A stretch of DNA of 64,000 bases from an uncultured delta proteobacterium. GTDB lineage: Bacteria; Myxococcota_A; Polyangia; Polyangiales; Houyiibacteriaceae. The position numbers were made by a program. Each line of letters begins with the position of its first letter. The stretch's first letter is position 1. The stretch covers positions 1,376,001 to 1,440,000 of the forward strand of contig CAVOVB010000001.1 of NCBI GenBank assembly GCA_963699755.1, given 5' to 3'. Of this stretch, positions 21,001 to 27,000 are shown one piece after another.

Positions 21001-24000
21001 AACTGAGATATGCCTGCTCGATCGCTTCAAAGCGCACAGTGAACGTATAGAAGTCCCGATCACGGACGTCGCCGTAAACCCAAAGCGCCTGCTCGACCCG
21101 GAGCTGATCCTCGGGTGCGCATTGCAGCTCCGCTCCCCAGTCGGACAGGTCTTGGCCCAGCAGCACTTCGAGCGCGATGCCGATCGGGTTGAAGGTCAGC
21201 GAGGAACGCTCGAAGTGCAGACGCCAGCGCGTGTAGTCCTCGGGGTCGGTGGCCCATTGTCCATCCTCGAACTGGCGGCGCAGGAGCTCGCCGAAGTAGG
21301 CGCCGCTCATCGGGGCGAGCAACGACACCAGCTCGGCTCTCGGGGAGTCGAGGAGCTCCGCGTAGTGATCGAGAATGGGGAGCGTGTCCGGACTCAAGTC
21401 GAGGTCCATCCCAGTGGCGTTCTTCGCCGAGGTTACGCAGGCTACGGTGAGGTCCATCACGAGCTTGTTGGTTTCCATGGGAATCGCACAATAGCGTGCT
21501 TCGCCCAACTGACCATCTCCCGATGCATGCACTAGGTCTGCGCTTGGATGCGGCTTTGAACCGCCACCCGTACACTGACTGCTCAGCTCGAGGCGGGCCC
21601 TCGGCTTGTGCAGGGCTCTCGGTTTATGCCGGCCCCTCGGGCCGCACCCGCAAGGAACGGGTTCTTGTGTTTCGAGCGGAACCCGAGCCCAAAGAGGTCG
21701 AGATGCTTCGCGTCGTCAATGTCGGGGAAGACCCCGAACTTCGCGGGGCGGCTCTCGCCGGCACCTTGGACGAGCTCGATGAGGGTGAGCTCATCGACGT
21801 GCCTTTTGCCAATCATGACCCTCTCGCGCAGCAGCTCGTCCTGATGAGTCCTCATGCAGCACGCGGCCGCGAGCTGTCGGAGCGGGCAAAGCTAGTCGAT
21901 TCGCTGAGTGCGGTAGATGCACTTCGTCGCCTAGAGCGCTTCGAACAGTGGAGCAGTCCCGACGAGATCGAGGAGGCGCTCCCGGTCGTCAGCATCCCGA
22001 GGACGGCCTTCGAGCTTTCGAGGCAGCGCATCGTCTCAGATGGCGCACGGTTCGGCCTGGCATGTCCGACGGGCTCGCGCTCCAGGCGGTTCGCTTCGGC
22101 TGGGCTCCCAGTGCCCAAGAACTGGTGGCTTCGCTGGGACGCCGATTCGAGGAAATCCTGTCCTCCGCGTCTGCGCAGGGCCTCCGCGCGGCTCGGGGTC
22201 AGGCGAACCAAGAGGCTCTGGCGCGGCTTTCACACATACACGGTACTTCGACCCTCCCAGGCCTTTCGTGTACCATGCAGGTTTCGGGATAACTGGCGAA
22301 CCAACCATGCGGCTCGGCATATTCAGCGACGTACATGCGAATCTCGAGGCCATGTCCTCCGTGATGGAGGCCTATGGCAGCGAGGACATCGATACCTATT
22401 ACTGCTTGGGCGACGTCGTCGGCTATGGCGGAAGCCCCAACGAGTGCGCTGACATCGTGCGCGACGTGGCTGAGGTCACCATCCTCGGAAACCACGATGC
22501 AGCGGTCGCCGGCCGGATGGACTACTCGTACTACTACGAAGCGGCCCGTCAGGCGCTCGACCTTCACGCACGCTCTCTGACGCCGGAGAACATGGCCTGG
22601 CTCAAAGCGCTTCCATACAAGTACGTCGTGGAGGGGACCGGCGTCGATCTTTGCCACGGCTCGCCGGTTCGGCTCGAGGAGTTCGAGTACATCTTCGCAC
22701 CAGACCAGGCAGCCGAGTGCCTGCCGATCTTGAACCAGCTCGGCCACATTACGCTCATCGGCCACTCGCACCTATGTAAGGTGTTCGCCCTTCGACCCGG
22801 GGAGGTGGAGGAGCTGCCGCCCGAAGATTTCGTCCTCGAGGATGGAACGAAGTACATCGTGAGTGTGGGCTCGGTAGGCCAACCGCGCGACTACGACAAT
22901 CGCGCGAGCTACACCGTCTACGACACAGACTCGCGCTCTTTCCATTTCAAGCGTATCGAGTACGACATCGAGGGCGCCGCCTCTAAGATCTTCGGCGCCA
23001 AGCTGGAACGGAACTTCGGACAGCGGCTCTTCATCGGCGTCTAACAGGCCTATCGCCCAGCCTCAGGACCGAAGGAGCCCGCGCCAGGTCGGCTTGCCGT
23101 CCGCAGGTGCGTCGAGGGGGGGTGTCTGCATGGTGCCGAGGGCGCATGCGTACGCGCTGAGCCTCCCGCTCTCATGGAGGCGGGAGCGGAGCTCCGTGAT
23201 CGATGTGGGGTCTGCCCCGACGCACTTCAGACTCGATCCGATCGATTCCATCGCCTGGATGGCCTGGTCGAGCCCCTGAATCGGGACGATCGTCACATTG
23301 CGATAGCCGGGGCTCCAACGTATCTCCTGGGCTGGGCGGATGCCAAGAGCGTAGCTGGTGCCCTGAATCAGCGTTCCTTCGACCTCGGCCATTCCGCGCC
23401 ACTGTGCTTGCTCGGCGCCAACCGATGAGGGCAGTGGGCCCCTTGGGAGCGTGTCGCTCATCGGGTCGAGGCCCTCATCCGCCAGACGCCGGGCAAAGCC
23501 CTGGGCAGTGAGAGCGGGGGTTTGCTCGACATAGACCAGCTGCGGGGAGAGGCATCCGCGCTGGTCGTAGGCGCAAATGTCGAGAGAAAGCTGGGCGATG
23601 GTGTCACTCAGCCGCGCCTCGCCGAGCGCTTCTGCGCCACAGTACGCCGCGCTCACGCCGTGTCCGTGAGCAATGAGCCGGGCCTTGCCAACCCGGGCCG
23701 CGACCGCGGCGATCGTTTCGTCGCTTCCATAGACCGAAACGGCCTCGGCGCGCTCGACGAGGGCAGTCTCGCATTCGAGGTCACCTCCCGGGAACGTCAC
23801 CAGGTCGACTGCAGCCCCGAGGCGGGCGTCGGCGTCGCGTAGGGCGTCTCGGAGCATTGCGGGGAAGACGGTCTCCCTCGAAGAGGCTTTGACCAGGACG
23901 GGAACGCCCAAGAGTAGCGGGACGACGATGCCGCGCACCGAGGCAGTGAACACATTCCCCGCGAGCAGCAGCGAGAGCATCGAAATCGGAGCTTGCGGGC

Positions 24001-27000
24001 ATTCGAGACTTGCTCCGCGGGCCAGGGCGAGCAAGGCGTCCTCCGTCATCGTGTCGAGCGTCGTGCCGATTGCCCAGTCCACCATTGAAGTGCTGAGGCC
24101 CGTTGCTTGCGATAGCTCGGAGCGGCGTAGTCGCCCCCGTTGCGTCAGGGTCTTGGCCGCTCTGGCAAGCCAGAGTGCACGCTCTGCGCTGCCCACGGCG
24201 CGAATGGCGTCACGTGCATCCAGCACGGCGCTGGCTCGAGCTCGAATCGCCGAGGCGTCGTCGATCACCGTGCCCCCAGGGCCTGGTCTGCGGCAAGCGA
24301 GCAGCCGCGTGGCGTCGCGCCAGCGGCCCGCCCGAGCACGACGATCCCGTCGTCGGCACGTCGCGCCAGGTCGGCGGTTTGAATGCAGCATACCGAATCC
24401 AGATTCGCCGTGTCGTCGATTCGCAGGATTCCCACCGCGTTTCCTTCGACGGGTTGGAGAGTGTCGGGCTCCACCGGCGTTGCGCGCACCCAGGGCGGCA
24501 CCCAGAGCCTGCGAGGCCGAGCGGAACCCTCGATGACCTCCCGCAACGTCGTCTCGTACATCTGCGAGCTGAGCTCGGTCGCCCCGAACTCGTTGATGAT
24601 GAAGGGGGCAGCGATGCCGTAGCGATCTCCGAGCGCCCGAAGCAGTAGGTCGGAATCCACTTCGCGGGAACGCCCCTTGTAGCCACCGGTCTGCATGATT
24701 CGGCTCCCCGGTGCGAGCGCGAAGCGCTGATCGCCGAGCCCGTCCTCGGCATGTACGAACGCGAACGAAGTGCCGAGCAAGGCGATCGCCTCCCCTGACG
24801 CCTCTGCGCTCCGGAGCACCTCGGTGAGGCGCTCGAGGTCGAGCGCGCCGTGACGCCAGGCCCAGGTACAATCGGTCCCGAACCATTCGGCAAATCGCGC
24901 CAACATGTATTCGAGAGAGGAGTCGGGGGATTCGTCTTCTCTTGGAGCCAGCATCACGAGCGGTAGTCTATCGACATCTGGAAAAAGCATTCGGCGCGCT
25001 GCGGCGCGGGCTGCAAGGTCGTACAGACTCAGGTCGGCGTAGACGTGCACGCTGCGCTCGGATGAGGTCGTGCCTGAGCTCCGAAACAGGCGGACATCGT
25101 CTTCCTCAGGGTGCGCCGCGATTCGTCGAAACCGAAAGACGTCGGTTGGGAGGGCGGGCGGCCAGGCTCCGTGACGCTGCAATCGGCCGTATGCTGGGAT
25201 GCGACTCGCTTGCCATGCTCCGAGGTCTTCGATCAGCGCGTCCCGAAGTGCCGGATCGACGTGCTCGCCAGCCTCGAACGCTGTGATCAGCGCTTCGATT
25301 CGGCTCTTGAGGATGGTTCGTTGGGTCACGGGCCCCCGAGCGCGTCTCGCAGCGACGCGATGAAGCCCTCGACTTGCGGGTCGGTCACCGTGACCGGCGG
25401 CGCCAGCTGAATCACGTCGGCTTCCGCGCCCGCAGGTAGCACGAGATAGCCGAGTTCGAGGAGCGCGCGGCTGACGTTCAAGGCCTGCATGCTCGTTCGC
25501 AGTTGCAGTCCGAGCATCAGCCCCGCCTGACGTACTTCAGTCACGGAGGGGAGCTGCGCTTCGCGCAGCAGGGCAGCGAGCGCCCCGCCCCGAGCGGCGG
25601 CCCGCCGGGCGAGCTGGTCGCGTTCGATCAGCGCGATGGTGGCAAGCGCCGCTGAGGAACCCAGAGGATCGCCGAAAAACGTGCCCGTGTGAATCGCCTC
25701 GCGGTCCGGATGACCCCATGCCCGCATCACGTCTTCGCTCCCGATGCACGCGCTGACCGGCAGACCGCCACCAAGGGCCTTGCCCGCGCAGATCAGATCC
25801 GGGGTGACGCCTTCGTCGACCGATCGCCACCATGCACCGCAGCGGCCAAGCCCGGTGAAGATCTCATCGACGATCAGCAGCGCATCGTTTTGCTTGCACG
25901 CCCGGCCGAGCGCTTCGAGAAAGCCCGGCGGGGGCAAGCGAACACCCGCGCGTCCCTGAATGGGCTCGACGATCACCGCGCCGATGCTGCCCCAGTCGTC
26001 GGGCAGCGTTCCCAGAGCCGCGTCGACTCCGAGATTGTAAGCGGGCCAAGGTGCGAAGTGTATGTCGCGCTGCAGTTGTGCCAAAAAGGGTTCGCGGAAG
26101 CGCTTGGCAAACCCGGAGACCGCCAACGGACCGTGGCTTAGTCCGTGGTAGCTACCCTCGAATGCGACGACTCCGGTCTTGCCCGTCGCCATGACCGCGG
26201 TCTTGAGCGCCGCTGTGACAGCATCGGCGCCGCTGAGCGAAAGCATGGCCCTTGCTTGCGGCCATGGCGCCAGCGAACAGAGTCGTTCGAGAAGCTCGAT
26301 CTTCACGTCCGAGGGGTGTAGGTCGCCGAGCGCGTGCAAGAGTCGATCTGCTTGCCGCTTCACGGCGTCGACGACCTCTGGATGACGATGCCCGACGAAC
26401 GCCACGCCGAATCCCGATGTGAGGTCGACGTATCGGTTGCCATCGGCATCGATCACGTTCGCGCCCTGGGCCTCGACCCAGACGATCGGATCGTGACTCG
26501 CTCCCGTCAGTTCTTCGCGGCGTTTGCGTCGAGTGGTGAGCGCGGGGCACTCACTTGCCGCGAGGCGCTCTACCCAGGTTTGACCCGCCGCCGCCGGGAT
26601 CGGGCGTCGAATACGTGGAAGGGCTTCACCAGGCTTCACGCTGGTGTCTTAGCACCTATTGGGCAAAGGGTTTCGGCTTCCACGGATAGAAGACGAAACC
26701 GTTTTCACGGGCTTTGCGAAGCATGTCATGCCCGTCGATGAGTAGAACGTCGACTTCCATGTCGTGACGGCGGCTGGCGTCGATGAGCTCTTTGATGATC
26801 GCGGTCACGTTGTCCCGAAAGTTGTCGGCGATCCGCAAGCCGACCGCCGGAGTCGGGTCTCCGCCTTTCCGCGCAACCTCGCAATAGGAGGCCCACTCGA
26901 TCTCGAAAAAGGCCCTCAGGACCTCGGCCATAGTCTTGAGCCAGTCCTCGTTCGGCGCCTCCTGCAGCTCTACCAGCTGGATTCCGTCTCCGATCGAGGG

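What a model noticed while it worked through the whole genome (the two positions that open the first line are those of the whole stretch)
23063..26639. Luciferase-free luxE-luxC joined to a class III aminotransferase
An operon aminotransferase-luxE-luxC, followed by a convergent metallophosphoesterase, has no luxAB. It could reduce a fatty acid to the aldehyde and aminate it, giving a fatty amine; the arrangement is typical of Polyangiales.
Evidence so far: Aminotransferase directly upstream of luxE in 9 of 9 loci from eight other families, luxC downstream in 8 of 9. Tables: LuxC-Aminotran_3 near in 316 of 592 order genomes, 1530 of 22402 genomes with both. The aminotransferase passes no named family cut-off.
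(Added by a program. Inside this text positions count along the whole contig: contig position 1,376,001 is position 1 of the stretch shown here. "Call 12" and the like, gene names such as g00115 and contig names such as C1 are that model's own, and its searches are not shown. The text may have been shortened before it was handed on; [...] marks where a part breaks off. The agent that wrote the report below was given it as the finding of a first reader that could run no searches.)

Follow-up and report, generated by a model that had tools for sequence, protein, structure and literature searches.

The report
Acid-to-amine shortcut to queuosine precursor
Three overlapping genes that resemble a luminous-bacteria fatty-acid reductase plus an aminotransferase most likely replace two textbook enzymes (QueC and QueF) in making preQ1, the precursor of the tRNA base queuosine, rather than making fatty amines.

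Summary
The operon is real: class III aminotransferase (26639-25326), LuxE-like (25329-24265) and LuxC-like (24268-23063) genes overlap by GTGA and keep their catalytic Lys/Cys. The acid-to-aldehyde-to-amine chemistry is supported; the fatty-amine product is not. The trio behaves like a core gene set (aminotransferase in 282 of 301 order genomes, including a 1.8-Mb genome).

In one draw of 251 phylum genomes, the 210 with this LuxE hold QueC in 3 and catalytic QueF in 0; the other 41 hold QueC in 36 and QueF in 33. QueA is in 247 of 251. This genome keeps folE, queD, queE, tgt, queA and queG but lacks queC and queF. Two of the three QueC exceptions lie in dpd-like DNA-modification islands. In 9 of 80 metagenomic loci queD, queE or queG abuts the cassette (7 control genes: 0 of 80).

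Best reading (0.8): CDG to CDG-thioester to 7-formyl-7-deazaguanine to preQ1, with no nitrile step. It is inferred from genomics only. The lead came from earlier notes of this scan on other genomes and was retested here. My paper searches found no description.

The parts
25326..26639 (-). Class III PLP aminotransferase of an unnamed clade; proposed aldehyde-to-amine step (7-formyl-7-deazaguanine to preQ1)
   Evidence: PF00202 297.5 bits; no NCBIfam cut-off passed among 25 shown; K287, D258, F77, D106, R230, W308, H317 invariant in 44 of 44 orthologues; AlphaFold pLDDT 95, GABA-aminotransferase-like fold, TM 0.89 at about 30% identity
24265..25329 (-). LuxE-like adenylate-forming acyl-protein synthetase; proposed to activate CDG and carry it on Cys343
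   Evidence: PF04443 36.9 bits; only PDB sequence match is LuxE 7XC6_E; R341-G342-C343 invariant in 39 of 39; model matches PaaK-type ligases, Z 22-25
23063..24268 (-). LuxC-like acyl-thioester reductase (401 aa, GTG start overlapping the luxE stop); proposed thioester-to-aldehyde step
   Evidence: PF05893 111.8 bits; C239 invariant in 31 of 31 and aligned with the catalytic Cys of 7XC6_A; profile covers 7XC6_A only to residue 441 of 477
26656..28161 (-). SseB-family-like protein, same strand, 16 nt upstream of the aminotransferase; local neighbour, not part of the conserved unit
   Evidence: No Pfam hit; Atlas clusters with PF07179 SseB at 0.95; present in 8 of 20 order loci and 0 of 20 outside
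22307..23044 (+). Convergent metallophosphoesterase; local neighbour, not part of the conserved unit
   Evidence: PF12850/PF00149; present in 39 of 52 close loci, 10 of 20 order loci and 0 of 20 loci outside the order

Best explanation
The three genes are a QueC/QueF-independent last leg of preQ1 synthesis. QueD and QueE, encoded elsewhere in the genome, make the carboxylic acid 7-carboxy-7-deazaguanine (CDG). The LuxE-like enzyme adenylates CDG with ATP and carries it as a thioester on its C-terminal Cys343. The LuxC-like enzyme takes the acyl group on Cys239 and reduces it with NAD(P)H to 7-formyl-7-deazaguanine. The class III aminotransferase converts the aldehyde to the aminomethyl group of preQ1, which Tgt, QueA and QueG carry on to queuosine in tRNA. 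Shown: the genes, coupling, catalytic residues, the pathway hole in this genome, near-exclusion with queC/queF, and clustering with que genes elsewhere. Inferred: the substrate, the aldehyde intermediate, the amino donor and every reaction.
For: (1) This genome has queD (over cut-off), queE, tgt, queA, folE and a queG-like gene but no queC or queF match; its Tgt keeps Cys158 and Val233 of preQ1-using enzymes (PMC3660597). (2) Same draw of 251 phylum genomes: LuxE orthologue in 210 (QueC 3, Cys-bearing QueF 0); 41 without it (QueC 36, QueF 33, neither 5); QueA in 247. (3) QueC of G457 and G494 sits in dpd-like islands with DndB/DpdB, TGT-like DpdA and FolE2, which use preQ0/ADG for DNA (PMC5699537). 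(4) In family f43 the one genome lacking LuxE (G413) carries a queF-queC pair. (5) queD, queE or queG lies within 150 nt of a cassette gene, same strand, in 9 of 80 metagenomic loci, in four layouts including queD-queE-luxE-luxC-aminotransferase; about 0.2 expected; 7 control genes give 0 of 80. The label is scattered on the LuxE tree, at least 4 changes forced. (6) A 1.8-Mb genome (G062) lacks argC, proA and lysA matches but keeps the trio, QueD, QueE, QueA and Tgt. (7) Where the operon is split, all three genes persist: luxE in 5 of 5 genomes, luxC in 8 of 8.
Against: No biochemical or genetic datum exists, and no que gene lies beside the operon in this window. G500 has luxE-luxC and QueC with no dpd genes in the 13 kb read, and no aminotransferase orthologue or QueF. 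G444 has the trio, a QueE-like gene and Tgt but QueA was not found. One QueE model at E<1e-30 found only 125 of 195 aminotransferase-positive genomes. Ten of the 70 misses were retested (9 of them, plus G444) and all hold QueE-like genes, but below curated cut-offs. A QPTR/YhhQ salvage transporter is in 9 of 23 cassette genomes. 45 of 80 metagenomic loci show no aminotransferase within the stretch held. Genomes are related, so the exclusion rests on a limited number of independent switches. Two of the nine adjacent loci (L264, L265) are near-copies; in L253 other genes separate the aminotransferase from luxE; in L282 queD is frameshifted.
Confidence: 0.8

Rival explanations
1. Fatty amine synthesis: a long-chain fatty acid is activated and reduced as in luminous LuxCE and then transaminated, as TabE/TabA or TamH do for tambjamine tails, perhaps for a membrane lipid.
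For: The closest characterised homologues are fatty-acid LuxC and LuxE. Acyl-thioester reductase plus class III transaminase makes dodecylamine in tambjamine pathways (10.1101/2025.08.11.669332, passages). The aminotransferase has Leu167 where acetylornithine aminotransferases have a carboxylate-binding Arg.
Against: No LuxD over cut-off in 5 of 5 genomes. No ACP, thioesterase or lipid gene recurs among neighbours. LuxC lacks the C-terminal element that forms the long hydrophobic cleft. The hypothesis does not explain exclusion with queC/queF or adjacency to queD/queE/queG.
Confidence: 0.06
2. The trio belongs to deazapurine/pterin metabolism but its substrate or product differs from the proposal: it acts on the QueD product CPH4 or on a tRNA-bound or nucleotide form of CDG, or it yields a base other than preQ1, while preQ1 is salvaged.
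For: The commonest adjacent layout is luxE-luxC-queD without an aminotransferase in view (4 of 9 loci). QPTR is present in 9 of 23 genomes. Cys-less QueF-like proteins occur in 8 cassette genomes. G500 and G444 are exceptions.
Against: QueE, whose product is CDG, is kept widely and abuts the cassette in 3 loci. QPTR was not found in 14 of 23 genomes, this one included. Tgt keeps the preQ1-type residues and QueA is near-universal.
Confidence: 0.08
3. An alternative amino-acid or tetrapyrrole route: reduction of a dicarboxylic amino acid to its semialdehyde and amination (ornithine, lysine, proline or aminolevulinate), with loss of queC/queF a coincidence of shared ancestry.
For: Core, single-copy distribution; top sequence matches are acetylornithine, putrescine and GABA aminotransferases.
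Against: This genome has argC, lysA, hemA and proA over cut-off and five other class III paralogues. The Arg/Glu/Arg set used by those enzymes is replaced by Leu167, Arg230 and Gln411. Control genes from these pathways never abut the cassette (0 of 80).
Confidence: 0.03
4. The PLP enzyme is a racemase, epimerase or phospho-lyase unrelated to the aldehyde, and LuxE-LuxC makes an aldehyde or alcohol for another purpose.
For: Racemases and epimerases appear among PDB matches at E 1e-44 to 1e-53. The canonical amino-donor Arg is absent. Many luxE-luxC loci show no aminotransferase.
Against: At least three different class III clades stand beside luxE-luxC (this clade; the L235/L238/L244/L279 type; an omega-type in L280). 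Repeated recruitment fits a generic amination step better than one special lyase.
Confidence: 0.03

Closest known systems
LuxC-LuxE fatty acid reductase of luminous bacteria (Photobacterium phosphoreum, PDB 7XC6; PMC9157457)
   Same: Same two families, the same catalytic cysteines (LuxE C-terminal Cys, LuxC Cys) and presumably the same adenylate, thioester relay and NAD(P)H reduction.
   Different: Far below NCBIfam cut-offs (34.5 vs 550; 23.5 vs 750). No luxAB beside it and no LuxD. Gene order is aminotransferase-luxE-luxC. LuxC ends before the P460-P488 element. The LuxE segment NVWF is replaced by a conserved polar xSSL.
Canonical preQ1 synthesis by QueC (CDG to ADG to preQ0, 2 ATP) and QueF (preQ0 to preQ1, NADPH) (PMC5699537; PMC13740343)
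   Same: Proposed same substrate (CDG) and product (preQ1), ATP activation of the carboxylate, and the same upstream (FolE, QueD, QueE) and downstream (Tgt, QueA, QueG) enzymes.
   Different: Unrelated protein families; aldehyde instead of amide, nitrile and imine; nitrogen from a PLP transamination; no preQ0 made. 7-Formyl-7-deazaguanine is reported only as a leak product of QueF mutants in what I read.
Thioester reductase plus class III transaminase pairs: TabE/TabA and TamH of tambjamine synthesis (10.1101/2025.08.11.669332); PigE
   Same: Thioester to aldehyde to primary amine with an ALDH-fold reductase and a class III aminotransferase.
   Different: Those act on ACP-bound C12 chains in secondary-metabolite clusters. 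Here no ACP or cluster is seen, a LuxE-type enzyme does the activation, and the genes are core. PigE model 240 vs cut-off 850.
PaaK-type ligases (PaaK1/2, ClxA, AjiA1, NatL2, EhpF, 2-hydroxyisobutyryl-CoA ligase)
   Same: Best structural matches of the LuxE-like model: PaaK2 Z 25.0, rmsd 3.2, 302 aligned; ClxA Z 23.2. Most act on small aryl or heteroaryl acids.
   Different: 11-17% identity; no C-terminal RGC carrier cysteine of LuxE type was examined in them. A shared fold does not give the substrate.

Membership tests
Bacterial lux (bioluminescence) operon | luxA/luxB luciferase genes with the reductase genes | tested here: not met
   None in the operon or scanned neighbours; the nearest LLM gene scores 25 bits vs cut-off 500 for luciferase beta. 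Genome-wide luxA/luxB search not run.
Bacterial lux (bioluminescence) operon | LuxD acyltransferase (PF02273) | tested here: not met
   No match in this genome; 0 of 5 genomes over cut-off.
LuxE / LuxC equivalogs (NF052244, NF052251) | Score over the curated cut-off | tested here: not met
   34.5 vs 550 and 23.5 vs 750 bits.
LuxE family (PF04443) | Pfam gathering score and C-terminal carrier Cys | tested here: met
   36.9 vs 24.9 bits; C343 invariant in 39 of 39, aligned with the GCS motif of 7XC6_E.
LuxE family (PF04443) | Structural match to solved LuxE | tested here: inconclusive
   7XC6_E is not among the rows listed by Foldseek or VIA-align; sequence profile match E 2e-35.
LuxC family (PF05893) | Pfam gathering score and catalytic Cys | tested here: met
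   111.8 vs 21 bits; C239 invariant in 31 of 31.
Long-chain LuxC | C-terminal element P460-P488 forming the L-shaped hydrophobic cleft (PMC9157457) | tested here: not met
   Profile ends at residue 441 of the 477-residue chain and the window protein stops a few residues later. The 11-residue numbering offset between paper and chain is my inference.
Class III aminotransferases (PF00202) | PLP lysine, pyridine-binding Asp, fold | tested here: met
   K287 and D258 invariant in 44 of 44; TM 0.89 to GABA aminotransferases.
Acetylornithine / GABA / ornithine aminotransferases | Curated cut-off; substrate Arg, gateway Glu and Arg (roles recalled, not from a call) | tested here: not met
   Below all 25 cut-offs shown; Leu167, Arg230 and Gln411 at those aligned positions.
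Queuosine pathway enzyme (QueC/QueF replacement) | Host has upstream and downstream que genes but lacks queC and queF | tested here: met
Queuosine pathway enzyme (QueC/QueF replacement) | Complementary distribution and clustering with que genes | tested here: met
   QueC in 3 of 210 vs 36 of 41; QueF in 0 of 210 vs 33 of 41; 9 of 80 adjacent vs 0 of 80 control.
Queuosine pathway enzyme (QueC/QueF replacement) | Converts CDG to preQ1; needed for Q in tRNA | not testable with these tools
   Needs assay or genetics.
Tambjamine-type fatty amine pathway | ACP or thioesterase and a secondary-metabolite cluster | tested here: not met
   None recurring among 97 neighbour proteins scanned from the window and the 40 diverse loci, or 64 proteins mostly from metagenomic loci; these were chosen subsets, not all neighbours.

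The most novel reading that the evidence does not exclude
Most Myxococcota and lineages of several other phyla make preQ1 by a second, nitrile-free pathway. A LuxE/LuxC pair acts as a heteroaryl carboxylate reductase on CDG, and aminotransferases recruited at least three times finish the job. tRNA modification, not fatty-aldehyde supply, may be a common job of LuxE/LuxC pairs outside luminous bacteria, and such hosts make no preQ0, so incoming dpd islands need their own queC.
Probability: 0.75. Interest if true: 0.9.

Novelty: new variant of a known kind. Interest (0 to 1): 0.8.

Why it matters
Queuosine synthesis is treated as settled, and QueF is described as the only known nitrile-to-amine reductase family (PMC13740343). 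A second route would fill a pathway hole in about five of six genomes of this phylum sample, change predictions of which bacteria make or must scavenge queuosine precursors, and give a function to luciferase-free LuxE/LuxC genes. It would also supply an ATP/NAD(P)H cascade from a heteroaryl acid to a primary amine of interest for biocatalysis. The claim can be tested by one complementation experiment in E. coli K-12.

Tried and rejected
Co-loss of the trio with QueA in genus g205 looked promising but failed: the profile search showed that the single-protein search had missed the aminotransferase in 13 of 19 'negative' genomes, G444 included. LuxE by profile is therefore used as the marker; G423 (weak, 5.5e-28, no luxC) was counted as negative.

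Weak QueF-like hits in 8 aminotransferase-positive genomes were not counted as QueF because they lack the catalytic Cys (PMC13740343).

Viral contigs: no LuxE relative and one partial aminotransferase. No RNA holder was listed, so expression was not examined. The promoter/terminator scan was uninformative. LuxE 7XC6_E was not listed in the structure searches. No complex prediction was run.

Amino-acid and haem gaps were sought and not found. QueH and QueT were not searched. Other phyla could be reached only through metagenomic contigs, so the exclusion with queC/queF was tested in one phylum only.

Paper searches found no description of the route: preQ1+LuxC 0 papers; deazaguanine+acyl-CoA reductase 0; queuosine+LuxE 9, none on topic by title and abstract; also (listings only). 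The library lacks most subscription papers, and no supplements were read.

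
Full report
OBSERVATION. On the minus strand lie a class III aminotransferase (26639-25326, 437 aa), a LuxE-like gene (25329-24265, 354 aa) and a LuxC-like gene (24268-23063, 401 aa), joined by two GTGA overlaps. 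The longer LuxC frame from ATG 24886 is an artefact of overlap with luxE (GC3 0.54 vs 0.76). A metallophosphoesterase converges from 22307-23044. All three genes pass Pfam cut-offs and fall far below NCBIfam cut-offs for LuxE, LuxC and the 25 best aminotransferase families shown. The genome has one luxE and one luxC. No luciferase gene lies beside them and LuxD was not found; luxA/luxB were not searched genome-wide.

THE UNIT. In 52 close loci luxE follows the aminotransferase in 49 and luxC follows in 46, with misses only at contig ends. The aminotransferase is in 282 of 301 order genomes (230 of 242 high-quality; this tally includes unpublished G117 and G294), nearly always once, including a 1.8-Mb genome. 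In 40 diverse loci that I chose from positive genomes with long contigs, aminotransferase-luxE is adjacent in 34 and luxC follows in 32. Flanking genes change from family to family; the phosphoesterase is in 10 of 20 order loci and 0 of 20 others. Where the operon is split the genes persist elsewhere: luxE in 5 of 5 genomes, luxC in 8 of 8. This is the pattern of a housekeeping pathway, not of a secondary-metabolite cluster (inference).

THE ENZYMES. LuxE keeps an invariant R341-G342-C343 (39 of 39) and LuxC an invariant C239 (31 of 31), matching the two thioester cysteines of the Photobacterium complex (PMC12041015 passages). The LuxC profile matches 7XC6_A only to residue 441 of 477. It thus lacks the C-terminal element that forms the long hydrophobic cleft (PMC9157457 passages; numbering offset inferred). 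LuxE has a conserved polar xSSL where luminous LuxE has NVWF; that this segment lines the acid pocket is not shown. The LuxE model (pLDDT 92) best matches PaaK-type ligases of small, mostly aromatic acids (PaaK2 Z 25.0, rmsd 3.2, 302 aligned), which is weak evidence on substrate. The aminotransferase (pLDDT 95; GABA-aminotransferase fold) has invariant K287, F77, D106, R230, W308 and H317. It has Leu167, Arg230 and Gln411 where acetylornithine aminotransferase 1VEF has Arg, Glu and Arg (the roles of those residues are recalled). It is a separate clade with its own specificity.

THE LEAD AND ITS TEST. My reading before one search was acid to aldehyde to amine with the product open. Earlier notes of this scan on other genomes proposed preQ1 synthesis, and I tested that on my own sample. 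This genome has folE, queD (over cut-off), queE (276 bits, cut-off 300), tgt and queA (over cut-off) and a queG-like gene, but no match to queC or queF. Its Tgt keeps Cys158 and Val233 of preQ1-using enzymes (PMC3660597 passages). No QPTR transporter was found in it.

One draw of 251 phylum genomes, at least 90% complete, was searched with the aminotransferase, LuxE, QueC, QueF, QueE and QueA. Of 210 with the LuxE orthologue, 3 have QueC and 0 have a Cys-bearing QueF. Of the other 41, 36 have QueC, 33 have QueF and 5 have neither. G423 (weak LuxE hit, no luxC) was counted as negative. Nine weak QueF-like hits lacking the catalytic Cys were not counted (PMC13740343 passages). QueA is in 247 of 251. 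One QueE model at E<1e-30 found 125 of 195 aminotransferase-positive genomes. Ten genomes missed at that threshold all hold QueE-like genes of other subtypes, below curated cut-offs.

Two of the three QueC exceptions (G457, G494) carry queC in islands with DndB/DpdB, TGT-like DpdA and FolE2 genes; such dpd islands put preQ0/ADG into DNA and can carry preQ0 genes (PMC5699537 passages). In family f43 the one genome without LuxE has a queF-queC pair. The 1.8-Mb genome lacks argC, proA and lysA matches yet keeps the trio, QueD, QueE, QueA and Tgt.

NEIGHBOURHOOD. The metagenome scan kept the best 80 of 589 LuxE relatives. In 9 of 80 a que gene lies within 150 nt of a cassette gene on the same strand. 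The layouts are queE-aminotransferase (L232, L253), luxE-luxC-queD (L264, L265, L273, L282), queD-queE-luxE-luxC-aminotransferase (L280) and queG-aminotransferase-luxE-luxC (L235, L238). About 0.2 would be expected from 94 available flanks. Seven control genes abut in 0 of 80, and no queC or queF appears in any locus. QueG was added as a query after it turned up. On the LuxE tree the label needs 9 changes, at least 4 forced by strong branches (116 rows, stretches under 270 aa left out). Among genome loci, G202 has a queD-like gene directly upstream and G004 has queE 3 kb upstream. At least three aminotransferase clades occupy the slot.

MECHANISM (0.8). CDG is adenylated and carried on LuxE Cys343, passed to LuxC Cys239, reduced to 7-formyl-7-deazaguanine, and transaminated to preQ1. 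Every reaction is inferred. The aldehyde is known as a leak product of QueF mutants (PMC13740343).

AGAINST. G500 has luxE-luxC and QueC with no dpd genes seen and no aminotransferase or QueF found (860 contigs). G444 has the trio and Tgt but QueA was not found. QPTR occurs in 9 of 23 cassette genomes. 45 of 80 metagenomic loci show no aminotransferase within the stretch held. L264 and L265 are near-copies, L253 has other genes between the aminotransferase and luxE, and queD of L282 is frameshifted. Related genomes are not independent, the exclusion was tested in one phylum, and no que gene lies beside the operon in this window.

RIVALS. Fatty amine (0.06): precedent in tambjamine TabE/TabA and TamH (10.1101/2025.08.11.669332 passages), but no LuxD, ACP or long cleft, and no account of the que links. 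Another deazapurine or pterin substrate or product (0.08). Amino-acid or haem route (0.03): argC, lysA, hemA and proA are present here. Racemase or lyase (0.03).

NOVELTY. Ten paper searches found no description; preQ1+LuxC and deazaguanine+acyl-CoA reductase gave 0 papers. Six papers were read as passages only, no supplements were read, and most subscription papers are not held, so prior print cannot be excluded. The enzyme families, the relay chemistry and the product are each known; their combination as a QueC/QueF replacement is not in what I could search. The scan has noted the same idea on other genomes. Verdict: new variant of a known kind, interest 0.8.

Noticed in passing
L170-L178 (G503, G433, G486, G357, G449, G407, G498, G425, G465): QueF-like T-fold proteins with the QueF motif but no catalytic Cys, with a long N-terminal extension, in genomes without QueC; eight of the nine are in one family. 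Function unknown; they might bind preQ1 or the aldehyde.
   Followed up: partly
L180 (G457:C41) and L181 (G494:C20): dpd-like DNA-modification islands with TGT-like DpdA, two DndB-like genes, a FolE2-HTH fusion and queC (two queC copies, a radical SAM gene and a QueD-like gene in L180).
   Followed up: partly
window 26656-28161 (-): SseB-like protein with a long Pro/Ala-rich middle, 16 nt upstream of the aminotransferase and probably co-transcribed; conserved there in part of the order only.
   Followed up: partly
window 28221-28295 (+): tRNA-Phe(GAA) between the SseB-like gene and a DUF2330 gene.
   Followed up: no
window 34715-35587 (-): Luciferase-like monooxygenase closest to the F420-dependent Rv2161c family (104 bits, below cut-off); not LuxA/B.
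   Followed up: yes
L097:5580-6789 (G034): luxC is split over two frames (frameshift or sequencing error) in an otherwise intact operon.
   Followed up: no
L232:7905-10448; L119:5949-8090: luxE and luxC appear to lie in one open frame (possible fusion) by my rough gene calls.
   Followed up: no
L291/L300 (G500:C5) and L299 (G500:C6): luxE-luxC and QueC in one genome, with no aminotransferase orthologue or QueF found; G333, G313 and G372 also have QueC without QueF.
   Followed up: partly
G406 and G444 (genus g205): QueA not found in either genome although tgt is present; tRNA might stop at preQ1.
   Followed up: partly
L273: Four Acido-Lenti-1 RNA matches flank the luxE-luxC-queD region, suggesting a lineage outside Myxococcota.
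   Followed up: no
L270 and L278: Order luxE-luxC-aminotransferase followed by a Gfo/Idh/MocA-type oxidoreductase; in L262 an MFS transporter lies between luxE and luxC.
   Followed up: no
L094:1671-2225 and L111:14934-15521: folE lies about 3 kb downstream of luxC in two genomes of one family.
   Followed up: no
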